This document shows positions 11,996 to 32,000 of a stretch of 32,000 bases of DNA, piece by piece. Made by a program: the position numbers and the translations under genes. The notes beneath the pieces were generated by a model. That model saw only the letters and a list, made by a program, of their open reading frames with translations. It had not been told where the DNA came from and did not search any database. The DNA lies in NCBI RefSeq assembly GCF_000025665.1, contig NC_013926.1, forward strand, positions 990,001 to 1,022,000. The letters run 5' to 3'. Origin of the DNA: Aciduliprofundum boonei T469 (GTDB lineage: Archaea; Thermoplasmatota; Thermoplasmata; Thermoplasmatales; Aciduliprofundaceae). Positions within the stretch are counted from its first letter, which is position 1; each line of letters starts with the position of its first letter.

Positions 11996-11996
11996 G

Positions 11997-15542: not shown

Positions 15543-15720
15543 AAGATTTCTGAGAAGTTGGGAGAAGTTAGAAAGTAATTATGGAGATAAGAGAGCATGT
15601 TGCAGCTATAATAAAATCTACAAATTGTTGGGGTAAATTAGGTAAAATCTCTCTCATGTTTATGAACTTGTTTTGAAGATCCGTGACAAGCTATTCAGAT
15701 GAATTGTTTATGAAATGGAA

Positions 15721-16413: not shown

Positions 16414-16423
16414 CTACATCACC

Positions 16424-18092: not shown

Positions 18093-18178
18093 CTATTTAT
18101 AAATGTAGATATGCAGATAATCTCAATGGCCAAAGTTATCATATTTAGCCCATAAGTTATCAGTAGAAAATAAAAAAA

Positions 18179-18832: not shown

Positions 18833-18896
18833 TTTTCATCACCATGTTTGCCATTGTTTCCAATATTATTAAATTTATTGCCGAAATTATTCCGAT

Positions 18897-18924
18897 AAGA
18901 ATAAATACTGCCATGCCATTTATT
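18897..18924 (+). promoter_or_regulatory. TATA-like box embedded in an inverted repeat upstream of the HTH-CBS gene
   Basis: AATAAATA at 18900-18907 is centred about 27 nt upstream of the ATG at 18930. AATAAAT (18900-18906) and ATTTATT (18918-18924) form an inverted repeat around ACTGCCATGCC. Confidence 0.4.
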
Positions 18925-18929
18925 GTTTT

Positions 18930-19484: not shown

Positions 19485-19596
19485 AAGTTCGTGAAATATT
19501 TGATATATGACTTATCAAATGTTTCTCCGATGAACACACCAACAAATTTTTTAGGCACTCAATATGGAGAAAATTCGGTTAAGGAGGCGAGGTAGA

Positions 19597-19707
19597 ATGT
19601 TGACGGATTCCTTGATAGAAGGATATGTAAAAACGAGGGAGAAAGAATACCTAATGGCGTTAATGCAAGTTATGAGTGAAATGGAAATAAAGGAGTTTGC
19701 ATCGTGA
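19597..19707 (+). CDS. Possible small ORF (36 aa) upstream of the 189-aa gene
   Basis: The ATG at 19597 lies 9 nt after AGGAGG. The product reads MLTDSLIEGYVKTREKEYLMALMQVMSEMEIKEFAS, and the stop is 10 nt before the next gene. An in-frame upstream ATG at 19564 would give 47 aa. The ORF is below the track length cut-off. Confidence 0.3.
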   Translation: MLTDSLIEGYVKTREKEYLMALMQVMSEMEIKEFAS

Positions 19708-19717
19708 GGTGATGTGA

Positions 19718-20287
19718 ATGGACATGATAGATGTGTTTTTAGGGGTCATGCAAGTGGATGGCGGGGATGTAATCCTGCATTTCAATTGGGATGCCGATAC
19801 ACGGAATTTGATGGAAATACAAGAGGAATTTGAAATCGATGGAAAAATATACATAACTTTAGCTGCACCCTTGCAGGACATAGGAACCTTGAAAGATTAT
19901 GGCATAATAAACAAAGGAAATAAAACCACATTCAACGATACGGTGAATAAAATTCTTGAAAGATGGAACTTCTTTAAAGAGAAATTGAAAAATGGAGAAA
20001 TAGAAATGCAAATACTCGCAGAAAATCCATTCATTGTAATAGACGATGATAAAAGATTCGCTTTTTTCTTGTTTTACAATATAATATTCCTTGCAGAGAT
20101 AATTGGAAAGTATAGAAGAAAGGAGACATACAAAAAATTGAGAATACGATTCTCATCCCTTGAGTACGGAGAAGGAGAATTGGATGGCACGATTAAATTG
20201 AAAGTAAAAGAAATTGACACCACCGATAACGAGGAACTATCTTCAGCATTAGTAGAAGCAGTATTGAAAGAAGAGGGAGATATATAA
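19718..20287 (+). CDS. Hypothetical protein
   Basis: 189-aa ORF preceded by GGTGATG. I recognise no motif. Confidence 0.65.
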   Translation: MDMIDVFLGVMQVDGGDVILHFNWDADTRNLMEIQEEFEIDGKIYITLAAPLQDIGTLKDYGIINKGNKTTFNDTVNKILERWNFFKEKLKNGEIEMQILAENPFIVIDDDKRFAFFLFYNIIFLAEIIGKYRRKETYKKLRIRFSSLEYGEGELDGTIKLKVKEIDTTDNEELSSALVEAVLKEEGDI

Positions 20288-20572
20288 TGGTATTTCGTGA
20301 ATAGAGGCATTGAGAGTTTAATTATTATGTTTTCACTTTCAGAATTATCTTTTAGGAAGTTAATATTTACATATATAATGTGGGGTTCTACTATTCATAA
20401 ATACCCCCAGATTTTAAGTTAGCTAGTGACATTTATTTTCACATGTCAATCTGTAGCGCTCTTTAACCAAGATAATATCTCTTATCGCCCTAGAGTTTAT
20501 AGCTTCTTCAATTAGTGCATGTTAATTAAATGTTAATCATATTCATATATTCTGTTTATTATTACGCGTATC

Positions 20573-20821
20573 ATGGATGCTAAATTATTAGCATTTCTAA
20601 AGGACGGTAAGTACAGAATTAAAACATTGGAGTTACTATATAAAAAGCCAAGACTTTCCAGCGAGTTGGCCACTTTATTGAACATAAATAGGGCATCTAT
20701 GAGTAGGATTCTAAGTGATCTAAAGAAGAAGGATCTCGTCGAATCTACATCCGATGGAACTAGAACTGTTGTTTATACTATTACAGAAAAGGGGAAAAAA
20801 TGTCTGGAGGAGTTAAAATGA
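20573..20821 (+). CDS. Small winged-helix transcriptional regulator (ArsR/MarR-like)
   Basis: 82 aa. RLSSELATLLNINRASMSRILSDLKKKDLVES, then a wing TRTVVYTITEKG. Its stop overlaps the ATG of the next gene (ATGA at 20818-20821). Confidence 0.75.
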   Translation: MDAKLLAFLKDGKYRIKTLELLYKKPRLSSELATLLNINRASMSRILSDLKKKDLVESTSDGTRTVVYTITEKGKKCLEELK

Positions 20822-22002
20822 GTAATGTAAATGGGAGAATACTAAATCAAAATGGAGGTAATATAATGTTAAATGAGAAGAGAAAACTAAAGAATAAAGC
20901 AATTGATTTCTTAAAGAGTTTTGGTGAAACAGATGAAGATAAAAGAAAAATAGAAGCAAAGTTCAGAAATATAAATGGAAAAACAGGTAGATACAATGTT
21001 CCTGATGATTTATGGCAAAAAAGAACGGCTAGAAAAAATAGAGTCTTAATTTCATGGAAGACTGTGAAAAAGAACGGTCTTACTTTAGAACAACTTGAAA
21101 CTTTTTACGGAGGTGTAGTTGTAGAATTTATTAACGATGATTACTTCAAAGAAGATCCAGATGATGAACTATTCAACAAACTTAAAAGTAGATTAGGTTC
21201 GGATGAGATAGTATCATCTATGATATCTATTAGAAATGAGGATGGTACATCTTCTTCACAAAAAGAAAGGGCGGCTATGGAAAAATTAGAAAAAGAATTC
21301 CCGGATTACAAAGAACATATAATAAAAAGAAAAGGAGGTGTGAGATATCGCGGTACAGGTAATGATGTTTGGGAAGGTTTTATCTACTATTCAATCAAAG
21401 GTGGGCAGCAAGATACCAGGAATGCATATGACGAAACAGGAATTAAACCCCCTCAACTATTTAATCCGGCCTCTGAGTATGCCAATGAAGAGGTATCGTT
21501 AGACATTGATCTTGTTTTGATTTATTTTGCAATGTTTAGTATAGATAAAGATTCTCTTGACACTCAAAAGAGAGATAAGTATGAGATGCTACTAAAAAGA
21601 TTGGAATATGTATTGGAAAATACTGAATATGATGAAGGAAACCTTTTGGAATACTGCAGAAATCACCCTAGTTTACTTTTGGATGAGGGGAAATTGTATG
21701 ATCCAATCCAAGTAGAAGAAATAAAAATTACTGATTTTGCAATTGATGACAAGAATGATCCACGCTCTATAGACATTGCTCACGATGAGGCAGTTAATAA
21801 AGAGAAATATTACTTTGACAAAAAACATGGGTGTATTTTAACCGCTGCTAGACCAACAAATCTCTTCTGGTCAAGGCATTCCTCCAACATGATGCAGCAA
21901 AATTACACTTTAGAGGAGTACTTTATGAAAGAAGAAGAAAGAGTAAAAAAGCGAAAAGAGAAGCTCAATTATAACAAATCAAAAAAGTTTTTATATGATT
22001 AA
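20818..22002 (+). CDS. Putative restriction endonuclease (possible HNH / beta-beta-alpha-Me type)
   Basis: About 394 aa from the ATG at 20818; the track start at 20800 is also possible. The C-terminal IDIAHDEAVNK...PTNLFWSRHSSNMMQQN has H...N...N spacing reminiscent of His-Me finger nucleases. It lies between a regulator and a DNA methyltransferase. Confidence 0.4.
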   Translation: MSNVNGRILNQNGGNIMLNEKRKLKNKAIDFLKSFGETDEDKRKIEAKFRNINGKTGRYNVPDDLWQKRTARKNRVLISWKTVKKNGLTLEQLETFYGGVVVEFINDDYFKEDPDDELFNKLKSRLGSDEIVSSMISIRNEDGTSSSQKERAAMEKLEKEFPDYKEHIIKRKGGVRYRGTGNDVWEGFIYYSIKGGQQDTRNAYDETGIKPPQLFNPASEYANEEVSLDIDLVLIYFAMFSIDKDSLDTQKRDKYEMLLKRLEYVLENTEYDEGNLLEYCRNHPSLLLDEGKLYDPIQVEEIKITDFAIDDKNDPRSIDIAHDEAVNKEKYYFDKKHGCILTAARPTNLFWSRHSSNMMQQNYTLEEYFMKEEERVKKRKEKLNYNKSKKFLYD

Positions 22003-22016
22003 TGTATATTTAACAT

Positions 22017-24575
22017 GTGATTAACATGATTAAAAGAAATAGCTTGGAAATAATCGAAAGTTTTTTACAGAGGTATAATATCAAATTAAATGTAAAAAGA
22101 TATCTCAAGAAATATTTGGTGGATTCAGATGAATATCAAGAGCTTCCAGATGATATAATTGATAGAATTATTGCTGATGGTTATAATCAAAACAGTGACC
22201 TTGTTAAAAAGATAGCTGAGTATTTTCTTAAAAAATACAATATTTATTTTGGAAGAATTCAAAAAGAGCAACTGAAAAAGTTTATAGATTATGGGTTTCA
22301 AAAAGATTTAGATATTTTAATTCAATTAATTCATCAAGACCTTCCAAAAGATTTGGATATACATAAAGAGATAGTAAAACTTATAAAGGATAATGGTCTA
22401 AAAAATGATCCTACTCCATATATAAATAATTTAAAGAATGCTATTAAAAAGAGAGATGAGAAACGTATTACCGATTATCTATTGTTTCTTTACTCTCGTT
22501 TAGTTAACCTAAATGAAAGAAAATATATGTCTCTATATTCTATATTCAAGGAAAATGAGGCAGAAATAAGAAAGGAACTTACTAATTTAGATTATCTTAA
22601 ATTAAAAGAATATTGTGACGATAAAACTAAATTAAAAAGGGAAGAAGCTGTCAAAAAATTTAATAGTGCGTATATGAATTTGCTTGAAAAAGAGAGCGGA
22701 GAAATAGAGAAAGCAGGATTGATTTATTTTGTGGTAGATCAAAAACTTTTTGACCATTTCAAAAATGAAAAAGATTTCTTCTCGTACCTTTTTGAATTGA
22801 TTAAAAAAGCATATTCTGAGTTGAAAAATCATAGAACATTAGCAATTAAGGTTCATAATATTTTTTCAAGAGGAATCAATATAAAATGGAAAATATATTC
22901 TTATTTAACAATTTATGCGGAAAAGTTTAGGAGAGAAAAAGAAAATAGAGGATACTACAAACCCTGGGAAATTTGTGAAGATGTATTAAAACACAAATTT
23001 AAAATCTATTTGAATGAGTATGATAGAAGAGTATTAACGGATTTTTATAAGAATGATCTTCCAAAAGGATATCTAAAAAGAAGTAAAAAGTTACAAAATA
23101 AAGAAGTTATAGAAACCATAGAGTTTTTCAAAAAAATTAACTATGGTTTTTCTTTTGAAGATTGTTTTATACTAAAAACAGATGAATTTACTAAAAATTC
23201 AAAGGGTATTGAATTTATAAAGAATGAAAATGAATTACTACTAATCTTTAATAAGCATCAATTTGATGATAGAAAAATTCCCTGCCCTGTGTGTGGAGGA
23301 TTAAAAATTTCAGGAAATTCATATCCTCAAATTGGAGTTAAAAGCTGGGAATGTAAAAATCCACTATGCGCTGCTAGAAGTAAAACAAATAGAGGAAAGA
23401 GATATTCCAAGAGATCTATATTAATGCAAGAAGCAGCCTTTGACTTTTCTAAGGAGAATCAAATACCAAAAGAGCTTATTAAGGTATGGAGAAAAGATGT
23501 GGTATTGGAGTGGAACTATAACTCACTGTATTCTATGTTGGTAAAATATTTTACTTTTGTTGGGGATAAAATAATTCTATTAAATGCAGAAAAGCCAAAA
23601 TTATTTAGTCTCATAGCATCAAAGGAGAAGCGAATACCACAAAATATGCAAACAAGAGATTTTTTAGATTTTTCTGTTAAAAATAGAAACGAGTTTGATG
23701 CTTTTTTCAATTCTCAATTTTTCAAATTATTTTTGTATAAAAAAGATGATTATAAATCTTCTAGTTTAAATTTGAATTTAAATATGGATAACAACAAGAT
23801 GAAGATAATTGTAGGTGATAGCTATAAGGTTTTAGAACTATTTAAGAACAAAATAACAAATATGGTTACTTCACCACCATATTATAATGCAAGGGAATAT
23901 TCTAAATGGGACAATCTATTTAATTATCTTAACGACATATATAACATTATTTTAAAGGCACATGATGCTTTAATTAAAGGTGGTGTGTTTTTTTATAATA
24001 TAGGTGATATTTTTGATAATGAGAATATAATTGTAAAATCAAAGATGGGTGAGAAAAGAATCCCCTTAGGTGCATATACTATTTTGATTTTTGAAAAAGC
24101 AGGTTTTGAGTTATTAGATGATATAATTTGGTATAAAGGTGAACCTCAAAGTAACAGGCATAAGAATGATGGAATGTACACACCTTACTATCAAAGACCA
24201 ACCAATTGTTATGAACATATGTTTATATTTAAGAAAGAGGGAGATGTAATCATAAATAAAGATAAGGATGAAATAAAAATAAAGAGTAACATTATTAAAT
24301 TTGCCCCTGTGGTTAAAATTGGTAAAGGTGGAGAGAATAGGTATGGGCATACTGCACCTTTTCCCAAGATGATCCCGTTACTATCTATTTCCACCTTTAC
24401 TAACCAAGGAGATATTGTACTAGACCCTTTCTCTGGTAGTGGTACAACACCAATAGTTGCATCTATAAATGGGCGTAAGGCTATAGGCATTGAAATTAAT
24501 AAAGAATATGCATTGCTTTCTATAAAGAAGGCAAAGGATGAAAACTTAGATGCTGAGTTAATAGATCTAAATTGA
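22017..24575 (+). CDS. Beta-class N4/N6 DNA methyltransferase domain fused to a ~590-aa N-terminal region with a zinc ribbon
   Basis: 852 aa. Motif IV TSPPYYN precedes motif I LDPFSGSGTTPIVA, and DIIWYKGEP lies between them. Zinc ribbon CPVCGG...CKNPLC. The start is either GTG 22017 or ATG 22026. Confidence 0.85.
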   Translation: MINMIKRNSLEIIESFLQRYNIKLNVKRYLKKYLVDSDEYQELPDDIIDRIIADGYNQNSDLVKKIAEYFLKKYNIYFGRIQKEQLKKFIDYGFQKDLDILIQLIHQDLPKDLDIHKEIVKLIKDNGLKNDPTPYINNLKNAIKKRDEKRITDYLLFLYSRLVNLNERKYMSLYSIFKENEAEIRKELTNLDYLKLKEYCDDKTKLKREEAVKKFNSAYMNLLEKESGEIEKAGLIYFVVDQKLFDHFKNEKDFFSYLFELIKKAYSELKNHRTLAIKVHNIFSRGINIKWKIYSYLTIYAEKFRREKENRGYYKPWEICEDVLKHKFKIYLNEYDRRVLTDFYKNDLPKGYLKRSKKLQNKEVIETIEFFKKINYGFSFEDCFILKTDEFTKNSKGIEFIKNENELLLIFNKHQFDDRKIPCPVCGGLKISGNSYPQIGVKSWECKNPLCAARSKTNRGKRYSKRSILMQEAAFDFSKENQIPKELIKVWRKDVVLEWNYNSLYSMLVKYFTFVGDKIILLNAEKPKLFSLIASKEKRIPQNMQTRDFLDFSVKNRNEFDAFFNSQFFKLFLYKKDDYKSSSLNLNLNMDNNKMKIIVGDSYKVLELFKNKITNMVTSPPYYNAREYSKWDNLFNYLNDIYNIILKAHDALIKGGVFFYNIGDIFDNENIIVKSKMGEKRIPLGAYTILIFEKAGFELLDDIIWYKGEPQSNRHKNDGMYTPYYQRPTNCYEHMFIFKKEGDVIINKDKDEIKIKSNIIKFAPVVKIGKGGENRYGHTAPFPKMIPLLSISTFTNQGDIVLDPFSGSGTTPIVASINGRKAIGIEINKEYALLSIKKAKDENLDAELIDLN

Positions 24576-24730
24576 TTTATATTGATCTAGCATATAGTAA
24601 ATTAAACACTAAACTCATAAGAGGTTTATTTCTTGTATTTATTTACCCACTATATAAGATGAGAAGCTTCAAATAAAGTAACAAACTTAAAAATAAACAT
24701 TATTTCTCTCAATTAGAAATTAAAACATCA

Positions 24731-26431
24731 TCAAGCAATGAATTTATCTTCTTCTTCCGAAGCGTATATGCGTATGGGAACTTTCACCACTCCCAATCTC
24801 AACAGCCCAACGGAGTATCCCGCCTCTTTCGCATTATGCCTTATGGTTATGTATCTCTCCTCTTGGGGAACGAACTTGTAGAACTTTCTCACATCTTCGG
24901 ATATGTAATCGTGATAAAGGAGAAGGTGCATTTCGGTGTTTTCCATTATGGCCCTTGTGTATTTGTTCAAGAAGGCATCGTTTGCCGATTGCGTTAAGAG
25001 GGTTAATCCCGTTTGAAAGTGCCTTGTGTGCCTTGCCATCCAACTCAACATCTCCGCAGCTCTTTCGTGGCTCCAGAGATGATGAACCTCATCCACATAT
25101 ACCAATTTCTTCCTGTCCTCATACTTCTTCATCTTTATGTGTGCGTATATGTAGTCAATAATCATAGTCATGAAGAATGCGAGAAGATTATCTGGGACAT
25201 CTCCCAAGTCAAAATTAACTATGTCCTTCTCCATCTTGAAATTCGTTTTTCTATTGAGGAAAGCGAGAGAACCTTTCTTGAATATCTCCAGAACCATAGA
25301 TACTCTCTTTAACTTCTCCTCCTTGGCACAACGCTCTATCAAATCTTCCATTATCGGATGTTCGTTCTCCCTGTAAAGCTGGTTCAGGATTACATCCAAG
25401 AGAGCCATCTCCTCCCCGTTCATCTGGAAAAGAGTTTCTAACATCGCAATTACACTTCTCACCTTGTTTGCCACTTCCTCTCCTCTCAATTCCAGAGGGT
25501 TTATCACATGTTTTCCCTGCCAGAGATTTATGTTTATTCCTCCCAGAGCTTTGAATGTCCCAGCGTTCTCGCTCAAAGGGTCTATGGCGTAAATCATCAC
25601 ATCAGGATTGACATTGTAAGCCCTCAAAATCGTGAGTTTCTCAAAGTAAGATTTACCCGAACCTGTCTTACCGAAAATGAGCATGTTTTGTGAGGGTAAA
25701 TAAAATCGATCCACGAAAACGGGTGTGCTGTTTATGTCGTTTATCCCGTAGAGTATCATGTCCTCTCCTAACACTCCCGCAAACTCGGAAATGAAAGGAA
25801 ATGAGGCAGTTATGACATCGGTATGAACGAACCTTCCCTTGTAGTATGGGATGTTCCTGTCCATCATGGGTAGCGTGGATTTGAATATAGCCCAAACCCT
25901 GTAATAGCCCTTGATTAACTTGAAATTCATGGCTTGTAATGCACTTTCTATTTTCCCCAGAGTTTCCTCCGCTTCCTTGTAGGTTCTTCCCTTTACCGCG
26001 ATACTGAGGGTTAGAAAGTATGCGTGGGTTTTCCTTGCGGAGATTAAATCCTTTAACTTCGATAAGGAATCATACTCTAATTTGAGTTTAGAATACTTTG
26101 GCGATGTTTCTCCCGTTGTTAGTAATTCTGCCTTTATGTTCGTCAAATCCGTGTGTATGAGAGCAATTGCCTTCTCATCCTTCAACCTGTCCAGATGTAA
26201 GCTTATATCCACATTCATGTATGAGGAGAGCAAGTTCCTCAAATAGCCATATTCTAACATCGTGGGGTATTCTTTCGGGAGAAGTGGGAAGATGTATAAC
26301 CTCTTGATTTTCGCTTCTATGTGGTTCTTGTAAATCTCTATCTTTGGTTTTAGAACATTCTTTAAGTTGATTGGCTGCAATCTCAACCTCATCTTTTCCT
26401 TGTCAAAGATTATGTCCTTCTTAATTACCAT
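24731..26431 (-). CDS. VirB4/TrbE/CedB-like conjugation-type ATPase
   Basis: 566 aa. Walker A GKTGSGKS (nt 25649-25672). Walker B KLVYVDEVHHLW. LTLLTQSANDAF motif. The N-terminal domain resembles VirB4 N-domains. Confidence 0.75.
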   Translation of the reverse strand: MVIKKDIIFDKEKMRLRLQPINLKNVLKPKIEIYKNHIEAKIKRLYIFPLLPKEYPTMLEYGYLRNLLSSYMNVDISLHLDRLKDEKAIALIHTDLTNIKAELLTTGETSPKYSKLKLEYDSLSKLKDLISARKTHAYFLTLSIAVKGRTYKEAEETLGKIESALQAMNFKLIKGYYRVWAIFKSTLPMMDRNIPYYKGRFVHTDVITASFPFISEFAGVLGEDMILYGINDINSTPVFVDRFYLPSQNMLIFGKTGSGKSYFEKLTILRAYNVNPDVMIYAIDPLSENAGTFKALGGININLWQGKHVINPLELRGEEVANKVRSVIAMLETLFQMNGEEMALLDVILNQLYRENEHPIMEDLIERCAKEEKLKRVSMVLEIFKKGSLAFLNRKTNFKMEKDIVNFDLGDVPDNLLAFFMTMIIDYIYAHIKMKKYEDRKKLVYVDEVHHLWSHERAAEMLSWMARHTRHFQTGLTLLTQSANDAFLNKYTRAIMENTEMHLLLYHDYISEDVRKFYKFVPQEERYITIRHNAKEAGYSVGLLRLGVVKVPIRIYASEEEDKFIA

Positions 26432-26835
26432 TCCTCATCCCCCCTCGCTTTCTCTATCAGAGCGTCCTTGATTGCCCAATAACCCAGCATGTTTATGAAA
26501 AACGATGAAAGGTATGCTCCAAGAATGTATGCTTGAAAGCGTGGAGAGAGTGAAAAGAGAAGAAAGAACATCCCCGTGAGGAACGGGGCTATGTATCTGA
26601 ACTTACCCGTGATTTCCTCCCTGTAATTGAGGAAGGTTATCAAAACCCCTCCTATTGCGAGAAGGTAGAGAATAGATGAGGCGATTATGCTTGTCCAAGC
26701 GATGAAGAAGAATAAAACCGATGAGAATAGAGCAATCTTGTAAAACTCCTCTGGGCTAACTCTCCAATCTATATCAAACGGCAATCTCTTTACTTTCTTT
26801 TCTTCCTTCTTTTTCTTGCGGAATAGTCCCATCAC
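26425..26835 (-). CDS. Small polytopic membrane protein
   Basis: 136 aa with 3-4 hydrophobic helices and a basic N-terminus KKKKEEKKVKR. It overlaps both neighbouring genes. Confidence 0.65.
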   Translation of the reverse strand: MMGLFRKKKKEEKKVKRLPFDIDWRVSPEEFYKIALFSSVLFFFIAWTSIIASSILYLLAIGGVLITFLNYREEITGKFRYIAPFLTGMFFLLFSLSPRFQAYILGAYLSSFFINMLGYWAIKDALIEKARGDEEW

Positions 26836-27572
26836 ATCACCTCCTTGTAGATGTTGATTAGTTCCTGTCCTTTGAGAACCCTGTATCCTATGCCCATGTT
26901 GGTTAGCCCTACGGAGAGAATATCAATTCTCTCTCTTATCTTGTCCCACGCAATCTTTGCCCTTACTTCCTTCTTTCCCGTTATCTCGAAGGCATTTACT
27001 CCCACGACTATGAAGTATCTTTGAATGTATAGCCCCTCGCAAGCTTCTCGGATTAAGTCCTTGTAATCGTTTGCAGTTGGGGTATCATTGACAACCGTAT
27101 CTAAAAACGGCTGGTAATTCAACCTCTCGGTATGAACAACGAACTGCAACGGGAAATCACAGGAATTTAACATGCTTTCGTATTTGAGCAATAATCCTAT
27201 CCTATCCTCATCGCTCATGAATGCGTAGCTTATGCCATTCACTTCCAAAACGGAAAAGTAATACTTCCCGTTGAAAAGAACCTCTCCGAAATAGAGAGAT
27301 AATGGCAAAGATGGGATTTCGTTCTTCATTCGGAGTTTTAGGTATTGCCAGAATTCTAAACCATCGAATTTCTTAAACGCCATTATAGCCGATAAGGGCA
27401 GGAAGAAGATTAGGAGATACATCGCATGAACCAGCATGGATAAGCCACTGAACACTCCTAAATACATCACGAATTTTAGAATGTCCTCTATCTTTATCGT
27501 TCCAAACGCTATCTTCCTGCCGAGATTTTCCGGTACTGCTGCGTATTTCAAGTTCTCATCCTCCACCGCCAT
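26832..27572 (-). CDS. Membrane-hairpin protein with a VirB4-N-terminal-like soluble domain (possible VirB3-like role)
   Basis: 246 aa. TM hairpin FVMYLGVFSGLSMLVHAMYLLIFFLPLSAIMAF. This is followed by YYFSVLEVNGISYAFMSDEDRIGLLLKYESML, which resembles the first domain of VirB4-type ATPases. Confidence 0.4.
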   Translation of the reverse strand: MAVEDENLKYAAVPENLGRKIAFGTIKIEDILKFVMYLGVFSGLSMLVHAMYLLIFFLPLSAIMAFKKFDGLEFWQYLKLRMKNEIPSLPLSLYFGEVLFNGKYYFSVLEVNGISYAFMSDEDRIGLLLKYESMLNSCDFPLQFVVHTERLNYQPFLDTVVNDTPTANDYKDLIREACEGLYIQRYFIVVGVNAFEITGKKEVRAKIAWDKIRERIDILSVGLTNMGIGYRVLKGQELINIYKEVM

Positions 27573-28824
27573 TATTTCTCCTCCTTAAATAGTCATAAGC
27601 GTGGTACGCAGTCCTTCCTATCAGATAAGCACCTGTTCCTACCGCTCCCGCAGTTGCTCCTCCAAGAGTATTCCCGTGTGTCTGGTTGAAAGCTCTATGC
27701 CCAATAGCAAAGCCATGCGTTCCTGCTGCCGCATACTTTCCTGCTGCCTGTCCCAAACTTCCTTTGAGTGCCACAGCTCCAACCGCTCCACCGCCAGAAC
27801 CACCCGTTATCGTTGCTCTCTCCGCTCCCTTTATCGCTATCATGTTCATCAGTCCAGCCCCAACGGTTAGCCCTCTGGAGAGATGTTCTCCCGCTCTGCC
27901 AAATCCTATACCAGAGAGGATGAACGGCTCTTTTGCGAGGAGATAAATAGCTCCAACGGAGATTACCATACCAGCAATCACGAAGGTTATGTGATTTGCC
28001 ACAGGCCCCACAAGCATTAGGGGTATTATCATCACGAAGGGCAAGAACACCAAATCCACCGCCAAGAACCACAACCTCTCTCCTATGCTGGTAGTCCAAG
28101 GAGTGAGCAATAATACGGCAGCAATCGGTAAGAGAACGATAAGCACGGCAAAGAGAACATCCCTGACTACCACAACCATTAACAGCATTAGGGTAAAATC
28201 CACAGATAAGAAACTCCAGATGTATTTTAAGAGGAGTTGCTCAAGGGTTGAAACAAGAAATGCAGTTGTTGGTGGTTGTAATTGAGATTTGATGTAATTG
28301 TAGAATGTGGGTTCTTTCCACGCTCCCAAAGCCCCGATGTTTATGTTGTAAAGAACCATGTATGCGTATTTGCCCATCATGATTAGGTAATTCACCACAT
28401 AAATGCTCCCGTATGCAAGGATTAACGCTATGATTAATCTTGGGATTATGCTCTTTAACCTTCCAAAGAAACTCTCGAATAAATCGGCATAGAGATACAT
28501 TAGCCCCACAATCCAAAGCATGAACACTATGAGAGCATTTACAATCTTCTCCACGATTACCCCGTTCAAGTATATGGCTGCACTCATCATGCCGTGTATT
28601 CCCGTCGTGGATACATCCTTGTAGTTCGGGAGATTGAGAAGGTTTGGAAACAATTCCGAAGGTCTCATGAGATAAAGAAATCCTTTCCATGCCATGTCCG
28701 CAATCTGATAGTTGAGGAACATGGCAAAAAAAGTTAATGCAGCCGATACCGCAATCGCTATGCCCCACCAAACTGCTGAGTCCACACCGAAAAGCCCTTC
28801 CTCCTTTTCCCACACAATCCTCAT
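27556..28824 (-). CDS. VirB6/TrbL-like polytopic membrane protein with Gly/Ala-rich C-terminal tail
   Basis: 422 aa with at least 7 hydrophobic segments. The C-terminus reads GGSGGGAVGAVALKGSLGQAAGKYAAAGTHG...RRRNNGGGG. Confidence 0.5.
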   Translation of the reverse strand: MRIVWEKEEGLFGVDSAVWWGIAIAVSAALTFFAMFLNYQIADMAWKGFLYLMRPSELFPNLLNLPNYKDVSTTGIHGMMSAAIYLNGVIVEKIVNALIVFMLWIVGLMYLYADLFESFFGRLKSIIPRLIIALILAYGSIYVVNYLIMMGKYAYMVLYNINIGALGAWKEPTFYNYIKSQLQPPTTAFLVSTLEQLLLKYIWSFLSVDFTLMLLMVVVVRDVLFAVLIVLLPIAAVLLLTPWTTSIGERLWFLAVDLVFLPFVMIIPLMLVGPVANHITFVIAGMVISVGAIYLLAKEPFILSGIGFGRAGEHLSRGLTVGAGLMNMIAIKGAERATITGGSGGGAVGAVALKGSLGQAAGKYAAAGTHGFAIGHRAFNQTHGNTLGGATAGAVGTGAYLIGRTAYHAYDYLRRRNNGGGG

Positions 28825-30042
28825 TTAGCCACCTCCGAAGACCCAATTGACGAGTTCGAACATCGCTGGATAACCAAGCACGATTATTGCGAGGATGAGA
28901 GTTCCCACGCTCACCTTCCAGAGCATTTCCTTCGCTAACATCTTCCTCTCCTCGCTATCGCTAAACCATAGTATTCCCTCTCTAACCCAAGCCACCGCTA
29001 CCAAAAATCCCGTGAATGCAGCTATGCCCTGCCAAAATGGAGGGTATTGTTCGCTTGTGGAGTATGCTCCATAGTTGTAAGCGTATTTCTCATCCACATT
29101 CTCAAATATAACATAGGGAGAGTTGTTGAACGCTTCTCCCTTCCCGTTGTTCTCAAAGGCAATACCGATGTGCGAGTTCCTTATGTAGATGTAAGAGTTG
29201 TTATTTCCACGAAGAATGAAACTCACATTTCCTTCCACTATGCCTATTCCTCCATAAGTCCATTCACCATCCCCGTATGAATAATACTTGTTGTTGAGCA
29301 TCATATCATGATTGAAGAAGAACTCATCCACATTCTCCAGCCACAAATCTGGGGTATGGCTATCTATGATACACACGCTATTGTCATCGAAATTAACCAC
29401 TCCCACATCACGAATTACAATTCCCGGTTCTTCTACGAGGGAATTGCTGCTTATGTCCAGAGAATCACCCATGAAACTGACATCCGAACCCTTGCCCCCG
29501 TCCAATTGAATGGGTGTGCCTTCGGAGCTGTCATACACATAGTTGTAGAAATCTATGTCCGTAAATCCGTTTGCGTTGATTTGTGTATCGTAGAGCCATC
29601 CTATCTCTTGGTTGCCGTTTTCTGGATTAGTGAATTGTAATCCGAAAACTACATATTTGCAGTTCTGGACTATTATCGTGGATTTCTGAAATCCTGTAAA
29701 GCCGATTACATAGTTATACACATTCTTGACTGTTATAGTCATGGATTGCGTGGAGAGATGAAGCCATCCCGTTGCCGTCTTCTTGTACATGTAGATGTTG
29801 AAAAGCAAAAGAGGTTCTCCGTTTATGTATGTTATCTGGACAGGGTCATGGTGTATGTTCCCGTTGCTGTCCATGTAATTGCTCCAATCTGCCCAAGTGT
29901 CGTATGCGTCTTGGTCTCCGTCTATTTCCAGAGTGTTCTGGTTGATTATCGTGGTATCTGCCTTTGCGTTCTGCGTGGGTATGAGGAAGATTAAAAGAGA
30001 GGAAATGATTAAAATTCCCACAATGAGAGCTTTTGCCTTCAT
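28825..30042 (-). CDS. Secreted protein with C-terminal VirB2/TrbC-like two-helix membrane domain
   Basis: 405 aa. Signal peptide ending NAKA. An approximately 300-aa ectodomain with beta-helix-like repeats (NVSFILRGNNNSYIYIRNSHIGIAFENNG). C-terminal hairpin (nt 28828-29043) with the loop WFSDSEERKMLAKE. Confidence 0.6.
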   Translation of the reverse strand: MKAKALIVGILIISSLLIFLIPTQNAKADTTIINQNTLEIDGDQDAYDTWADWSNYMDSNGNIHHDPVQITYINGEPLLLFNIYMYKKTATGWLHLSTQSMTITVKNVYNYVIGFTGFQKSTIIVQNCKYVVFGLQFTNPENGNQEIGWLYDTQINANGFTDIDFYNYVYDSSEGTPIQLDGGKGSDVSFMGDSLDISSNSLVEEPGIVIRDVGVVNFDDNSVCIIDSHTPDLWLENVDEFFFNHDMMLNNKYYSYGDGEWTYGGIGIVEGNVSFILRGNNNSYIYIRNSHIGIAFENNGKGEAFNNSPYVIFENVDEKYAYNYGAYSTSEQYPPFWQGIAAFTGFLVAVAWVREGILWFSDSEERKMLAKEMLWKVSVGTLILAIIVLGYPAMFELVNWVFGGG

Positions 30043-30045
30043 TTT

Positions 30046-31008
30046 CTACCACGCCCCTACCAGCCATCCCGCTATAATCCACATAGCACCCAATACCGCT
30101 ATGGCAACGATTATCGTCCCCACGAATGCGTTTAGAGATTTCTCTTTCGCCTTCTTTTTCTTGTCTGGGTCGCTGGAAAAGTAATTCACCGCCACATTCA
30201 CCCAGAGTATAGATATGATTATTCCTCCCGTGATGGATAGGAGTTCCTGCATTCTCTCCACTTCATACTCCACATAAGTTTGATTTACCGCTCCCGTGTG
30301 CCCAAACCAGCCACCGAGTATGCCAAAGAAACCTCCTCCACCGTGCCACGATGAACCTCCTCCCCACCAACTTCCTCCTCCACCGCTCCAACTACCACCT
30401 CCGCCACTCCATCCACCTCCTCCCCACCATCCGCCAGAACCACCAGAACTGCTCTGCTTGTTGTAGGTGATGTTTAGATATACCCAATCTATGTAGAAAT
30501 GCCCACTTGCCCAACCGCTACTCCAACCAGCTTTTACCTCTACCCTCTTTCCTACATACTTCTTGACAAAGCTCGTTATGTTCATAGTTCCGATTTCCCA
30601 CTTGCCCCTTGTTGTAGGGAAATATTGCTTCGTTCCCGATATGTCTAAATAAATTCTCAGGCTTTGAGAGTAAAGAGAATTGTAATACTTCATGCTCAAA
30701 GTTGCGGATTTTATCAGGGTTGAGTTTATGTCTGGCAAGGTTAAGTATTGATAGATGTAGGCATAAGCATATTCTACACCCTCGCCATAGTGGCTATGCG
30801 TCCAAAAATACGCCTCTCCATTTTGGAAAACACATCCCACATAATACCCTTGATAATCATGATATCTTGCTACACTCCAATTCCCACCACCGCTATCAAA
30901 GCTCGGATTTTTTAGAAACTGCTCCGTCACGATTTTTGCATGTGCCCCTCCAACCACAAGCATTCCGATTAAGAGCAGGGAAATTAGCAGGGTTGTAATC
31001 CTTTTCAC
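30046..31008 (-). CDS. Secreted jelly-roll-like domain, Gly/Trp linker and VirB2/TrbC-like C-terminal domain
   Basis: 320 aa. Signal peptide ending GGAHA. The N-terminal FLKNPSFDSGGGNWSV resembles the start of CBM4_9/galactose-binding-like domains. G/W/S linker at residues 186-238. C-terminal hairpin with the loop YFSSDPDKKKKAKE. Confidence 0.6.
   Translation of the reverse strand: MKRITTLLISLLLIGMLVVGGAHAKIVTEQFLKNPSFDSGGGNWSVARYHDYQGYYVGCVFQNGEAYFWTHSHYGEGVEYAYAYIYQYLTLPDINSTLIKSATLSMKYYNSLYSQSLRIYLDISGTKQYFPTTRGKWEIGTMNITSFVKKYVGKRVEVKAGWSSGWASGHFYIDWVYLNITYNKQSSSGGSGGWWGGGGWSGGGGSWSGGGGSWWGGGSSWHGGGGFFGILGGWFGHTGAVNQTYVEYEVERMQELLSITGGIIISILWVNVAVNYFSSDPDKKKKAKEKSLNAFVGTIIVAIAVLGAMWIIAGWLVGAW
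30295..30453 (-). repeat. Low-complexity coding repeat (Gly/Trp/Ser linker)
   Basis: The plus strand shows reiterated CCACC/CCTCC units. These encode SSSGGSGGWWGGGGWSGGGGSWSGGGGSWWGGGSSWHGGGGFFGILGGWFGH. Confidence 0.8.
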
Positions 31009-32000
31009 AATATCACCCCCACTATGTCAAACGCTCCTACTGCCCATCCCGCAAGGAGCCATATAGTTCCCAGCACCGCCATGGCGATTATGAGCGTTGC
31101 GAGGAGAGCTTTTAGAGCGTTCTCTTTTGCCCGTGATTTCCTATCGGGGTCATCGGAGAAGAAATCCAGCGCCTCTTTCACCCAGAGAACACTTATCACA
31201 GCACCGCCAACTATGGCTAATGCCCTCTGGATGTTCCCCACCACATACTCCACATAGGTTGCGTTCCCAGAGGTATTACCTGCAAACCAAACTCCTCCAC
31301 TTCCATGCCAAAATCCTCCTCCTCCACTCCAACCGCTACCGCTTCCCCACCAGCCACCAGAGCCACCTCCACTCCAAGAGCCACCATTGCCCCACCAACC
31401 TCCGCTACCGCTTGATGATACCTTATAAGTTATCGTGAGAGAAACATTGTAAAGGGTTGTTTCCACATACTTAAGCTTAGAACCACTTACTATGTGCAAA
31501 CCTGCTAAAACATACAAGGATTTTCCAGCATATTGCTTTACAATATCCGTTAAATTTGCTGTGTATATCTTCTCATAAGCCATACCAAGTTGGCTTTCCC
31601 ATCCCTCATTTGAAACATTGTATCCATCCTTTACAGCCACCCAAACATATTCCTTTGTACTAGAATCTTCATCGGCTTCATAATCTAACGAAAAAGTTGC
31701 GTTTATTATATCTCCATTCGGGATGTTAATCTTTTGCCAAATATAGCCATACCCTTCACCTAAAGTTGTCTCATCATCACTTCTCGCTTGAACCACATCA
31801 TACCATCGTCCTTTGTTGGAGTAATGGTATAAAAGCCAATCTATGCGCGAATCTCCCGCATGTGTATAAGTCCAATAAGCGCTATTGTTCGAAGATGTGA
31901 AGGTATTATCTTGAACTAATTGCTCCGTTTTTATGGTCTCTGCACTCACTTTTCCAGAGGATAAGAGTATGGATGTCAAGATTAGTACCACGAAAGATAG
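31005..32000 (-). CDS. Paralogue of the preceding gene (jelly-roll-like domain, Gly/Trp linker, VirB2/TrbC-like domain); 5' end may lie beyond the window
   Basis: The track starts at GTG 31991, but the frame stays open to nt 32000 (LSF before VVLILTSILLSSGKVSA). G/W/S linker at residues 192-237. C-terminal hairpin with the loop FFSDDPDRKSRAKE. ATGA overlap with the downstream gene. Confidence 0.6.
   Translation of the reverse strand, partial: LSFVVLILTSILLSSGKVSAETIKTEQLVQDNTFTSSNNSAYWTYTHAGDSRIDWLLYHYSNKGRWYDVVQARSDDETTLGEGYGYIWQKINIPNGDIINATFSLDYEADEDSSTKEYVWVAVKDGYNVSNEGWESQLGMAYEKIYTANLTDIVKQYAGKSLYVLAGLHIVSGSKLKYVETTLYNVSLTITYKVSSSGSGGWWGNGGSWSGGGSGGWWGSGSGWSGGGGFWHGSGGVWFAGNTSGNATYVEYVVGNIQRALAIVGGAVISVLWVKEALDFFSDDPDRKSRAKENALKALLATLIIAMAVLGTIWLLAGWAVGAFDIVGVIL
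31281..31418 (-). repeat. Low-complexity coding repeat (Gly/Trp/Ser linker)
   Basis: Encodes SSSGSGGWWGNGGSWSGGGSGGWWGSGSGWSGGGGFWHGSGGVWF. Confidence 0.8.

What the first reader, a model, noticed from the sequence alone, without database searches (positions are those of the whole stretch)
24731..32000. Archaeal type IV secretion / Ced-Ted-like operon of at least seven overlapping genes
All genes are on the minus strand with overlapping or abutting junctions at 31005-31008, 30042/30046, 28824/28825, 27556-27572, 26832-26835 and 26425-26431. The set comprises a VirB4-like ATPase (GKTGSGKS, VYVDEVHH) and a VirB6/TrbL-like polytopic protein with a Gly-rich tail. It also has a TM-hairpin protein with a VirB4-N-like domain, a small membrane protein, and three secreted proteins ending in VirB2/TrbC-like hairpins. 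Established knowledge: archaeal conjugative plasmids and the Ced/Ted DNA-import systems use VirB4-like ATPases, VirB6-like channels and VirB2-like pilins. No relaxase or coupling protein is visible in the window, so the direction of DNA transfer (export or import) is open. Combined with the recombinase, this looks like an integrated conjugative or pT26-2-like element.
Basis: partly seen in the sequence, partly recalled or inferred. Interest (0 to 1): 0.65.

Follow-up and report, generated by a model that had tools for sequence, protein, structure and literature searches.

The report
Conjugation pilus operon of archaeal ICE
This is the DNA-transfer (type IV secretion) operon of a mobile element integrated in the genome of the vent archaeon Aciduliprofundum boonei T469; the element was catalogued in 2011, but it carries bacterial-style pilins, a coupling protein and a relaxase-like gene that recent reviews say archaeal conjugation systems lack.

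Summary
Seven tightly packed minus-strand genes lie at 24731-32000. They are the last 7 genes of an 11-gene operon that runs to about 35926, beyond the window edge.

The source is Aciduliprofundum boonei T469. By gene counting, the genes are Aboo_1056 to Aboo_1062.

The proteins are:
- a VirB4 ATPase of the monoderm (MPF-FATA, CD1110-like) type;
- a conserved VirB4 partner, made of a VirB3-like hairpin and a TrsD/VirB4-N-like domain;
- a small membrane protein;
- a polytopic VirB6 candidate, with only weak fold support;
- paralogous VirB2-type pilins (Pfam PF18895 family), several fused to an N-terminal beta-sandwich (CBM-like) domain by a Gly/Trp linker.

A VirD4-type coupling protein (Aboo_1016), a ribbon-helix-helix protein and a MobA/VirD2-like mini-relaxase (Aboo_1015) lie about 38-41 kb to the left. 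Two related copies show that these genes belong to the same backbone.

In this copy the backbone is split by a 29-kb defence island that includes a type III-A CRISPR-Cas system.

The locus is the single archaeal ICE listed by Guglielmini et al. 2011. It is not a Ced, Ted or pT26-2 system. The pilin array, the pilin fusions, the relaxase assignment and the CRISPR cargo were not described in the papers I searched.

The parts
24731..26431 (-). VirB4-type ATPase, 566 aa (Aboo_1056 by gene counting). Walker A is GKTGSGKS at residue 254 and Walker B is VYVDEVHH at residue 444. It lacks the first ~180 positions of full-length VirB4 profiles.
   Evidence: NCBIfam NF045971 (CD1110 family) 6.7e-62, profile positions 182-734/752; Mbov_0397 1.1e-42; CedD only 1.5e-6. 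Pfam TraG P-loop, AAA_10 and DUF87. The only PDB sequence hit is 4AG5, VirB4 CTD, 1.6e-8. Best plasmid relatives are the Pontibacillus CD1110-type VirB4 (27% identity, 1e-43), haloarchaeal plasmids, and pGO1-type TrsE. The best PHROG hit is only 46.5 bits and partial. dN/dS 0.063.
26425..26835 (-). Small membrane protein, 135/136 aa, encoded between the two VirB4-related genes. It is conserved in the archaeal clade. Its function is unknown.
   Evidence: No Pfam, NCBIfam or PHROG hit. Hydrophobic segments. A gene of the same size sits at the same position in L009, L010, L012 and L019. dN/dS 0.086.
26832..27572 (-). VirB4 partner protein, 246 aa. It has an N-terminal two-helix membrane hairpin (VirB3/PrgI-like by position and topology) and a C-terminal TrsD/VirB4-N-terminal-like domain.
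   Evidence: NCBIfam: residues 102-244 match Mbov_0397 VirB4 positions 126-273/894 (4.3e-5) and CD1110 positions 20-164/752 (0.01). These abut the positions covered by the 566-aa protein. Only 3 of 5 family members give these hits. The family profile hits the gene immediately upstream of VirB4 in B. thuringiensis (2.7e-13), Pontibacillus (3.3e-9), Halorientalis and Natrinema plasmids (~3.5e-4). The Bt gene lies between a PrgI-family gene and VirB4. The direct comparison with pGO1 TrsD was negative.
27556..28824 (-). Polytopic membrane protein, 422 aa, with ~7 TM segments and a disordered Gly-rich C-terminal tail. It is the VirB6-type channel candidate.
   Evidence: TM prediction. AF2 model pLDDT 62.6, pTM 0.55. 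5 of the top 8 Foldseek PDB hits are TrwI/VirB6 chains of the R388 T4SS, but they are weak: E 0.3-0.8, TM 0.2-0.37. There is no Pfam, PDB-sequence or plasmid tblastn hit. The only profile hit in the comparison loci is the syntenic 795-aa Pontibacillus protein, E 0.15. Its position directly upstream of the VirB3-like and VirB4 genes matches MPF-FATA systems.
28825..30042 (-). Secreted 405-aa protein: signal peptide, ~300-aa extracellular region, and a C-terminal pilin-like two-helix hairpin.
   Evidence: Signal peptide and two C-terminal TM segments. The C-terminus aligns with the pilin module of the paralogs, 33% identity to the 160-aa pilin over the module. dN/dS 0.17.
30046..31008 (-). Pilin-fusion protein, 320 aa: signal peptide, beta-sandwich domain (~57-182), Gly/Trp-rich linker (184-243), and a VirB2-type hairpin (244-316).
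   Evidence: Pfam T4SS_pilin PF18895 is below threshold at 21.7 bits. The C-terminus is 57% identical over 75 aa (E 1e-17) to the 160-aa PF18895 pilin. The AF2 model has low confidence, pLDDT 47.6. Foldseek matches the beta domain to CBM4/CBM61/CBM6/CBM35 jelly-rolls, E ~1e-4. It is the fastest-evolving gene compared, dN/dS 0.28.
31005..32000 (-). Pilin-fusion paralog with the same architecture, cut by the window edge. The full protein is 342 aa and starts at 32033.
   Evidence: Pfam T4SS_pilin 19.6 bits and T4SS_CagC 17.9 bits, both below threshold. Alignment with the paralogs.
15721..17843 (-). ICE backbone 'integration' block: a SHOCT-domain membrane protein (15721-16413), a conserved 281-aa protein (16424-17269) and a short tyrosine recombinase of 197 aa (17250-17843).
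   Evidence: Pfam Phage_integrase 5.5e-8 and SHOCT. The block is conserved and syntenic in L009 and L019/L025. dN/dS is 0.085 for the integrase.
18025..24727 (.). Variable cargo slot between the integrase and VirB4. Here it holds a 217-aa protein, an HTH-CBS regulator, a 189-aa protein, an HTH protein, and a low-GC restriction-modification-like pair (20800-22002 and 22017-24575).
   Evidence: Pfam N6_N4_Mtase 2.5e-34, HTH_3 and CBS. GC is 0.32 against 0.43 for the operon. L009 and L019 hold different RM-like cargo at the same slot.
1..15719 (.). Right half of a 29.3-kb defence island inserted into the ICE backbone between the T4CP and SHOCT genes. The island spans window coordinates about -13556 to 15719.
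   Evidence: In the compact copy (L025) the T4CP stop codon is 7 nt from the sequence homologous to window 15719. L009 holds only a 1.9-kb AbiE pair there. Contents within the window: AAA/DUF4143 protein, ParE toxin-antitoxin, MBL nuclease, SbcC/SbcD-like pair, two Csa3/CARF-like proteins, and a MoxR-vWA cluster.

Best explanation
The seven genes are the distal part of an 11-gene mating-pair-formation (type IV secretion) operon. The operon belongs to an integrative conjugative element (ICE) in Aciduliprofundum boonei T469.

Proposed mechanism:
1. The element excises using its tyrosine recombinase (inferred).
2. A small MobA/VirD2-like relaxase, helped by a ribbon-helix-helix protein, nicks an oriT (inferred).
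3. The VirD4-type coupling protein hands the DNA to a membrane channel (inferred).
4. The channel is built from the VirB6-like polytopic protein, the VirB3-like/TrsD-like protein and the VirB4 ATPase.
5. VirB4 also powers assembly of a VirB2-type pilus from the 160-aa major pilin.
6. The large paralogs would act as minor pilins, displaying beta-sandwich, lectin-like domains on flexible Gly/Trp linkers. Together with the 744-aa Ig-like surface protein they would bind recipient cells (inferred).

Shown here: gene identities by profile searches, synteny, one shared backbone with the T4CP and the relaxase-like gene, integration at different chromosomal sites, and purifying selection.

Inferred: excision, nicking, pilus assembly, the adhesin role and the direction of transfer.
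For: - VirB4 identity.
- The VirB4 partner protein is conserved next to VirB4 in four other systems.
- A PF18895 pilin passes threshold in the operon and is clearly paralogous to the window proteins.
- Weak VirB6 fold hits plus synteny.
- T4CP (Aboo_1016; PF10412 2.5e-38) is 93% identical to the T4CP of relative L009.
- Relaxase-like Aboo_1015 conserves a Tyr and an H..PHxH cluster. 18 of 19 homologs hit Pfam Relaxase PF03432 (best 3.8e-9). The top PDB hit is a relaxase.
- An RHH protein lies next to it.
- The same backbone order (RHH, relaxase, T4CP, SHOCT, 281 aa, integrase, cargo, VirB4 ... pilins, 744, 79, 448, 81) occurs in two compact copies.
- Homology with three MAG copies ends at one base (38020) next to different host genes, one of them a tRNA-Arg.
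- dN/dS 0.06-0.28.
- Gene indices 1034/1035/1075 of Guglielmini 2011 map to Aboo_1015/1016/1056 with a constant offset of 19.
Against: - No att direct repeats were found at the homology limits, and excision is unproven.
- In this copy a 29-kb insertion separates the relaxase and T4CP from the operon, so the copy may no longer transfer.
- The relaxase-like protein itself scores below Pfam's threshold (16.8 against 24.6 bits). It is very short (172 aa) and has no helicase or C-terminal domain.
- VirB6 and pilin similarity to solved structures is weak or absent.
- No VirB8-, VirB1- or VirB5-like proteins were detected.
- Patescibacterial systems with similar parts are thought not to be conjugative (PMC12102498).
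Confidence: 0.75

Rival explanations
1. This is a domesticated or non-conjugative T4SS. The operon would build pili for cell-cell contact, DNA import (as in Ced/Ted) or uptake of molecules (as proposed for Patescibacteria), and the linked relaxase and T4CP would be irrelevant or decayed.
For: The parts list (short VirB4, TrsD-like partner, VirB3-like, VirB6-like, array of divergent PF18895 pilins) is the one described for Patescibacterial T4SS. In the window copy the T4CP and relaxase are 38-41 kb away. More distant relatives (L010, L012) show no T4CP within 10 kb.
Against: The T4CP, relaxase-like and RHH genes are intact. They are 80-93% identical between copies and always lie on the same backbone as an integrase. 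The element sits at different chromosomal sites. NCBIfam Ced models gave only a 27-bit CedD hit against 210 bits for conjugative VirB4. Ced and Ted lack a T4CP and a relaxase (PMC9905601).
Confidence: 0.13
2. This copy is an immobilised ICE remnant. Its backbone was broken by the 29-kb defence island, and it is retained because of its CRISPR-Cas and restriction cargo. The T4SS genes would be on their way to decay.
For: The 29.3-kb insertion lies exactly between the convergent T4CP and SHOCT genes, relative to two compact copies. No att repeats were found. An 82-aa degenerate pilin remnant lies in the operon.
Against: All 11 operon genes, the integrase, the T4CP and the relaxase-like gene are full length, with no frameshifts. 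Large cargo insertions are normal in functional ICEs. The dN/dS values show selection at family level, although they cannot speak for this single copy.
Confidence: 0.1
3. This is a pT26-2-like plasmid or a virus-like element whose ATPase is a HerA/FtsK-type packaging motor.
For: There are weak Pfam hits to DUF87/HerA (3.7e-7) and FtsK_SpoIIIE (0.0069). A PHROG family labelled 'terminase large subunit' hits at 4.1e-12 over residues 39-264.
Against: VirB4 models score far higher and cover the full length: 209.8 bits against 46.5 bits. The only PDB sequence hit is VirB4. The locus also has a T4CP, a relaxase-like gene and pilins. pT26-2 core proteins are reported to have no HMMER- or BLASTP-detectable similarity outside their family, and that family is reported from Thermococcales and Methanococcales (PMC6972569). 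No capsid or terminase genes are present.
Confidence: 0.02

Closest known systems
MPF-FATA conjugative T4SS of monoderm bacteria (CD1110/Tn916-like, pGO1 trs, Mycoplasma ICE Mbov_0395-0397 types)
   Same: The VirB4 scores best on these NCBIfam models. The gene order is the same: pilin-like, large membrane protein, VirB3-like, TrsD-like, VirB4, as in the Pontibacillus and B. thuringiensis plasmids. There is a VirD4-type T4CP, a MobA/VirD2-type relaxase domain and an RHH accessory protein.
   Different: The host is an archaeon. VirB4 identity to these systems is only 24-28%. The VirB3-like hairpin is fused to the TrsD-like domain, and an extra 136-aa membrane-protein gene sits between that gene and VirB4. 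There is no cell-wall hydrolase and no VirB8-like protein. There are multiple pilin paralogs with large N-terminal domains. The relaxase is only 172 aa.
Patescibacteria (CPR) T4SS (Quinonero-Coronel et al. 2025, PMC12102498)
   Same: After the archaeal clade, the next-best VirB4 hits in the protein database are Patescibacterial, at 26-29% identity and co-linear ~600-aa length. Both have a TrsD-like partner, VirB3, VirB6, and arrays of divergent PF18895 VirB2-like pilins.
   Different: Most CPR clusters lack a relaxase, and their T4CP is rarely linked. Here both lie on the same integrative backbone together with a recombinase. Pilins fused to beta-sandwich domains were not mentioned in the passages of that paper I read.
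The A. boonei T469 ICE of Guglielmini et al. 2011 (PMC3158045)
   Same: It is the same locus. Their VirB4, T4CP and MOB gene indices 1075/1035/1034 equal Aboo_1056/1016/1015 plus 19. Their VirB4 profile coverage of 0.51 fits the short VirB4.
   Different: That survey listed only the three marker genes and called the type 'other'. The operon anatomy, pilins, boundaries, cargo and extra copies were not described there.
Ced (Sulfolobales) and Ted (Thermoproteales) DNA-import systems (PMC9905601)
   Same: Both are archaeal systems with VirB4-like, VirB6-like and VirB2-like components. TedC, like the pilins here, has a cleavable signal peptide.
   Different: Ced and Ted are chromosomal, non-mobile importers without a T4CP, relaxase or integrase. 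The ATPase here scores 27 bits on the CedD model against 210 bits on conjugative VirB4. No Ced model hit any other protein.
Archaeal conjugative plasmids (Sulfolobus pNOB8/pING, Thermococcus pT33-3) and thaumarchaeal ICEs
   Same: These are archaeal self-transmissible elements with VirB4 and VirD4 homologs. The thaumarchaeal ICEs also have VirB6 and VirB3 homologs (PMC6563490).
   Different: Those elements are reported to lack recognisable relaxases and VirB2-type pilins (PMC9905601; PMC12857230). This element has candidates for both.

Membership tests
Conjugative T4SS / ICE (CONJscan-style definition) | VirB4-family ATPase | tested here: met
   NF045971 at 6.7e-62, below the curated equivalog cut-off because the N-terminal part is missing. 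The only PDB sequence hit is 4AG5 VirB4 CTD. Walker A and B motifs are present.
Conjugative T4SS / ICE (CONJscan-style definition) | Type IV coupling protein (VirD4/TraG) in the same element | tested here: met
   Aboo_1016, 602 aa, with PF10412 2.5e-38, PF02534 6.4e-25 and PF12696. It lies outside the window at about -15.3 to -13.5 kb. It is on the same backbone as the operon in L009 and L019/L025.
Conjugative T4SS / ICE (CONJscan-style definition) | Relaxase (MOB) | tested here: met
   The evidence is transitive. Aboo_1015 alone is below threshold (PF03432 16.8 bits against 24.6). However, 18 of 19 homologs hit PF03432 (best 3.8e-9), Tyr20 and H106/H113/H115 are conserved, and the top PDB hit is relaxase 9QQ7. 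Guglielmini 2011 also scored it as a MOB. Catalytic activity was not tested.
Conjugative T4SS / ICE (CONJscan-style definition) | Integrase, and integration at varying chromosomal sites | tested here: met
   A 197-aa tyrosine recombinase is present. Homology with three MAG copies stops at the same base next to different host genes, one of them tRNA-Arg.
Conjugative T4SS / ICE (CONJscan-style definition) | att repeats at the ends, or an excised circular form | tested here: not met
   No direct repeat of 13 nt or more was found between the available ends, and only chance-level 9-mers occur at the junctions. Excision cannot be tested with sequence alone.
Conjugative T4SS / ICE (CONJscan-style definition) | VirB6-type polytopic channel protein | tested here: inconclusive
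   There are about 7 TM segments. The top Foldseek hits are TrwI/VirB6 but weak (E 0.3-0.8). There are no Pfam or PDB profile hits. The syntenic Pontibacillus protein is the only local profile hit, at E 0.15.
Conjugative T4SS / ICE (CONJscan-style definition) | VirB3-like and TrsD-like VirB4 partner | tested here: met
   The NCBIfam coverage complements that of the ATPase. The family profile finds the VirB4-adjacent gene in four systems, 2.7e-13 to 3.7e-4. The VirB3 part is inferred from topology only. The direct comparison with pGO1 TrsD was negative.
VirB2/TrbC-type T4SS pilin (Pfam PF18895 T4SS_pilin) | Profile match above the gathering threshold | tested here: met
   The 160-aa operon paralog outside the window scores 34.9 bits against a cut-off of 26.6. 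The window proteins score 21.7 and 19.4 bits, below the cut-off. They are 57% identical to the 160-aa pilin over the module, E 1e-17.
VirB2/TrbC-type T4SS pilin (Pfam PF18895 T4SS_pilin) | Signal peptide followed by two hydrophobic helices joined by a charged loop | tested here: met
   The AF2 hairpin spans residues 244-316. No sequence-level link to any solved pilin was found.
Ced system | CedA, CedA1, CedA2 and CedB homologs; chromosomal importer without T4CP or relaxase | tested here: not met
   Only a 27-bit CedD hit on the ATPase, and no Ced model hit the other proteins at E<=1. A T4CP and a relaxase-like gene are present.
Ted system | TedA/TedB/TedC homologs, Thermoproteales, no T4CP or relaxase | not tested
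   No Ted profiles or sequences were on hand. The context (T4CP, relaxase-like gene, integrase, mobile backbone) argues against membership.
pT26-2 plasmid family | Seven core genes (t26-5p, 6p, 7p, 11p, 13p, 14p, 15p) with no detectable similarity outside the family | not tested
   No pT26-2 sequences were compared directly. The proteins here have clear bacterial T4SS homologs, unlike the pT26-2 core as described in PMC6972569. The recombinase gene here is a single intact 197-aa ORF in the middle of the element; SSV-family integrases, by contrast, are split in two on integration (abstract of PMC7253208).
Viral HerA/FtsK packaging ATPase | Best match to packaging ATPases, and capsid genes nearby | tested here: not met
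   The best PHROG hit is 46.5 bits and partial, against 209.8 bits on VirB4. No capsid or portal genes occur in the roughly 58 kb examined.

The most novel reading that the evidence does not exclude
A cultivable euryarchaeon carries a complete, bacterial-style, relaxase-dependent conjugation machine. It would assemble VirB2-type pili decorated with lectin-like domains, by way of pilin fusions. It is related to the monoderm and Patescibacterial T4SS lineage, and it carries an entire type III-A CRISPR-Cas system as cargo. If it is functional, this would be an archaeal conjugation system with both a recognisable relaxase and a conjugative pilin. It would also point to inter-domain exchange of this T4SS lineage.
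Probability: 0.4. Interest if true: 0.75.

Novelty: new variant of a known kind. Interest (0 to 1): 0.6.

Why it matters
[quoted passage not shown] They also state that VirB2 pilins in monoderm-type T4SS are known only from Patescibacteria (PMC9905601, PMC12857230).

This element was flagged once in a 2011 survey and apparently not followed up. It has candidates for every one of these parts, and its host, strain T469, can be grown in culture. That makes several questions directly testable:
- whether archaea perform relaxase-mediated ssDNA conjugation;
- how a VirB2 pilus is built through an archaeal envelope;
- what pilin-adhesin fusions do.

It also shows an ICE carrying a complete CRISPR-Cas system together with several other defence modules.

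Tried and rejected
1. Profile searches of the pilin module and of the VirB6-like family against PDB sequences gave only generic membrane-protein noise or nothing.
2. A Pfam scan of all 21 VirB6-like family members found no TrbL, VirB6 or PrgH hit.
3. phmmer of the 246-aa protein against full-length VirB4 homologs was negative. hhalign against pGO1 TrsD gave a probability below 1%.
4. Searches for att direct or inverted repeats at the ICE ends and at the island junctions found nothing above chance.
5. The genome-contig scan did not return the T469 genome itself. The flanks had to be reached through exact-protein look-ups.
6. A search with L009's T4CP fragment returned only one fragment. The T469 ortholog was found by walking past the cas genes instead.
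7. Cluster look-ups gave no organism names for the 32-62% identical relatives, so the taxonomic spread beyond Aciduliprofundum is unknown.
8. The AF2 model of the 320-aa fusion is of low confidence, so I claim only a fold class for its N-terminal domain.
9. I considered and rejected Ced/Ted membership, pT26-2 membership and a viral packaging ATPase. The reasons are in the membership tests.

Full report
OBSERVATION

The junctions are -7, -4, -17, 0, +3 and -4 nt. The last ORF runs off the window. On identical public contigs it is 342 aa and starts at 32033. The Walker A (GKTGSGKS) and Walker B (VYVDEVHH) motifs are present.

The genes are real. They recur in the same order on other contigs. Against a relative whose ATPase is 91% identical, dN/dS is 0.06-0.28.

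The seven genes are the distal part of an 11-gene cluster (24731-35926, gaps -17 to +7 nt). The four genes beyond the window encode a 308-aa pilin-fusion paralog, an 82-aa degenerate pilin remnant, a 160-aa pilin and a 744-aa Ig-like surface protein. A 177-nt intergenic region with a TTTATATA box about 32 nt upstream of the start codon precedes the cluster, and a T-rich stretch follows it.

SOURCE

Exact-sequence look-ups of neighbouring proteins give GenBank accessions from Aciduliprofundum boonei T469 (CP001941). Cas6 is Aboo_1021, Cas10 is Aboo_1028, the 160-aa pilin is Aboo_1065 and the 81-aa gene is Aboo_1070. The window is therefore in genome orientation. By counting, the window genes are Aboo_1056 (ATPase) to Aboo_1062.

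WHAT THE PROTEINS ARE

ATPase (566 aa). It is a VirB4.
- NCBIfam CD1110-family VirB4 6.7e-62, Mycoplasma ICE VirB4 1.1e-42, TraC 1e-26, and CedD only 1.5e-6.
- Its only PDB sequence match is the VirB4 C-terminal domain 4AG5.
- The closest plasmid proteins are a Pontibacillus CD1110-type VirB4, haloarchaeal plasmid VirB4s and staphylococcal TrsE, at 24-28% identity.
- After about 15 archaeal-type relatives, the next hits in the large protein database are Patescibacterial VirB4s of the same ~600-aa length.
- The best PHROG hit is 46.5 bits and partial, against 209.8 bits on VirB4.

246-aa protein. It has a two-helix membrane hairpin followed by a domain that matches the N-terminal part of two VirB4 models. 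The profile positions it covers abut those covered by the ATPase: 126-273 then 275-829 of 894, and 20-164 then 182-734 of 752.
- Only the three close family members reproduce this match.
- Pairwise and hhalign tests against full-length VirB4s and against pGO1 TrsD failed.
- A profile of the family finds the gene directly upstream of VirB4 in a B. thuringiensis plasmid (2.7e-13; located between a PrgI-family gene and VirB4), in Pontibacillus (3.3e-9) and in two haloarchaeal plasmids (~3.5e-4), among 803 ORFs.
- This fits the 'TrsD' component, described as a remote VirB4 N-terminal homolog of pGO1-type and Patescibacterial systems (PMC12102498). Here it is fused to a VirB3-like hairpin.

136-aa membrane protein. 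It is encoded between the 246-aa gene and the ATPase gene. It is conserved in the archaeal clade and has no detectable homologs elsewhere.

422-aa protein. It has about 7 TM segments and a disordered Gly-rich tail.
- It has no sequence-profile link to any family.
- Five of its top eight Foldseek PDB hits are TrwI/VirB6 chains of R388, but at E 0.3-0.8 and TM 0.2-0.37.
- Its only local profile hit is the syntenic 795-aa Pontibacillus protein, at E 0.15.
- VirB6 is the best guess from topology and position, but it is not demonstrated.

405-, 320- and 342-aa proteins. Each has a signal peptide and ends in a ~70-residue module: a hydrophobic helix, a DDPDRKxxAKE loop, then a second hydrophobic helix.
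- The 160-aa operon paralog passes Pfam T4SS_pilin PF18895 (34.9 bits against a 26.6-bit cut-off).
- It is 57% identical to the C-terminus of the 320-aa protein (E 1e-17).
- In the 320-aa protein the module follows a beta domain and a Gly/Trp-rich disordered linker.
- The beta domain resembles carbohydrate-binding-module jelly-rolls (E ~1e-4). The model is poor (pLDDT 47.6), so I claim only the fold class.

THE ELEMENT

Walking left past a type III-A CRISPR-Cas locus reaches three genes:
- a 602-aa VirD4/TraG coupling protein (Aboo_1016; PF10412 2.5e-38);
- a 172-aa protein (Aboo_1015);
- a ribbon-helix-helix protein.

Aboo_1015 is below threshold on Pfam Relaxase when tested alone. Its 21 homologs among 1.84 billion representatives conserve Tyr20, R64, P70 and H106/H113/H115 (the HYNTEHPHSH motif). 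18 of 19 homologs hit PF03432 (best 3.8e-9), and the family's top PDB hit is relaxase 9QQ7, aligned on that motif.

Guglielmini et al. 2011 reported one ICE in archaea, in A. boonei. Their gene indices are 1034 (MOB), 1035 (T4CP) and 1075 (VirB4, profile coverage 0.51). These equal Aboo_1015, 1016 and 1056 plus a constant 19, so this is that ICE.

Two other copies are compact: a metagenomic relative (L009) and a second copy in the T469 draft assembly (L019/L025). Their order is RHH, relaxase, T4CP, SHOCT protein, 281-aa protein, integrase, restriction-modification cargo, VirB4, and so on, within about 25 kb.

In the compact copy the T4CP stop codon is 7 nt from the sequence that matches window 15719. 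The 29.3 kb lying between them here (about -13556 to 15719) is therefore an insertion. It contains a 375-aa protein, a CRISPR array, cas genes, an AAA/DUF4143 protein, a ParE toxin-antitoxin, an MBL nuclease, an SbcCD-like pair, two Csa3-like proteins and a MoxR-vWA cluster.

Homology limits put the element at about -16464 to 38020, or 54.5 kb. At the right end, three Aciduliprofundum MAG copies diverge at the same base next to different host genes, one of them tRNA-Arg. No att repeats were found.

MECHANISM AND RIVALS

The best-supported reading is relaxase- and T4CP-dependent conjugative export through a VirB4/VirB3-TrsD/VirB6-like channel. A VirB2-type pilus would carry adhesin-like minor pilins. 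Confidence is 0.75; the steps that are inferred are marked as such in the Best explanation section.

Three rivals were considered:
- a non-conjugative, Patescibacteria- or Ced-like use of the pilus (0.13);
- an immobilised remnant kept for its defence cargo (0.10);
- a pT26-2-like or viral packaging module (0.02).

COMPARISON AND NOVELTY

The system is of the monoderm MPF-FATA kind and shares its parts list with Patescibacterial T4SS. It is not a Ced or Ted system, and it is not of the pT26-2 family.

The ICE call itself is already published. The papers I searched do not describe the operon anatomy, the pilin array and pilin fusions, the fused VirB3-TrsD-like protein, the family-level relaxase evidence, the CRISPR-Cas cargo or the extra copies.

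Current reviews say archaeal conjugative plasmids have no identified relaxase, and that VirB2 pilins in monoderm-type systems occur only in Patescibacteria. I therefore rate the finding as a new variant of a known kind, with interest 0.6.

Noticed in passing
window 1-15719, continuing to about -13556 (L014, L015, L017): A 29.3-kb defence island is inserted in the ICE backbone between the convergent T4CP and SHOCT genes. It holds a complete type III-A CRISPR-Cas system (cas10/csm, cas6, cas4, cas1, cas2 and an array of 9 or more repeats GTAGAAGAAGTACCATGTGGTGTGGAAAC). It also holds an AAA/DUF4143 protein, a ParE toxin-antitoxin, an MBL-fold nuclease, an SbcC/SbcD-like pair, two Csa3/CARF-like proteins and a MoxR-vWA cluster. 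The ICE is in effect carrying CRISPR-Cas.
   Followed up: partly
window 20800-24575: A low-GC (25-31%) gene pair: a 400-aa protein with no family hit, and an 852-aa protein with a C-terminal N6/N4 DNA methylase domain. It looks like a recently acquired restriction-modification module. Other copies (L009, L019) hold different RM-like cargo at the same slot.
   Followed up: partly
window 9843-15183: A five-gene plus-strand cluster (438, 284, 371, 471 and 223 aa) with a MoxR-type AAA ATPase and a vWA-domain protein. The other three proteins have no Pfam hits. It may be a MoxR-vWA defence or regulatory system.
   Followed up: no
L019/L025 (DS990517.1), plus other draft scaffolds named: The T469 draft assembly (GCA_000151085.1) holds two further copies, more than 90% identical, of VirB4, the T4CP, the pilin and the 744-aa protein. 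It also holds one further copy each of the relaxase-like protein and the integrase. Exact-sequence look-ups found these variants only on draft scaffolds, not on the 1.49-Mb finished contig. I could not tell whether they are real paralogs or a second strain in the draft.
   Followed up: partly
extended coordinates 36104-38037 (L004:201-2134); also L020, L021, L022: A three-gene module (81/79 aa, 446-448 aa, 79 aa; no family hits) forms the right end of the ICE. It also occurs alone elsewhere in the genome, once directly next to a 355-aa tyrosine integrase (L022). The 79/81-aa family has 34 cluster members. Its function is unknown; it may be an independent mobile or regulatory module.
   Followed up: partly
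about window -16467 to -16350 (L017 ~10000-10060; L025 8540-8650): The conserved backbone begins just upstream of the RHH gene with an inverted repeat, TTTGAGGTTCAAATTCTCAAA. This is a candidate oriT or promoter, judged by position only.
   Followed up: no
L007:71-145: In one Aciduliprofundum MAG copy, a tRNA-Arg(TCG) gene lies immediately outside the right boundary of the element. This suggests tRNA-adjacent integration for at least some copies. No tRNA lies at the T469 boundary.
   Followed up: partly
extended coordinates 32953-33201 (L004:5037-5285): An 82-aa ORF retains only a signal-peptide-like start and the second pilin helix. It looks like a degenerate pilin paralog inside the operon.
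   Followed up: no
L027 and L028 (Halorientalis and Natrinema plasmids): Haloarchaeal plasmid VirB4 loci also encode a protein of roughly 750 aa with Ig-like domains nearby, and a 534-573-aa protein upstream of VirB4 that matches the 246-aa family profile. This hints at a wider euryarchaeal T4SS lineage sharing these accessory parts.
   Followed up: partly
window 24731-26431 against PHROGs: phrog_2666, labelled 'terminase large subunit', matches residues 39-264 of this VirB4 at 4.1e-12. The label may be a mis-annotation of VirB4-like proteins found in phage records.
   Followed up: no
L010, L012, L013: More distant relatives (VirB4 39-51% identical) keep the four-gene core: a ~400-aa membrane protein, a ~255-aa protein, a ~140-aa protein and VirB4. 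Their neighbours are PF00004 AAA ATPases, PD-(D/E)XK nucleases, ParA and AbiE, and no T4CP lies within 10 kb. This may mean a different DNA-processing module in those elements.
   Followed up: no
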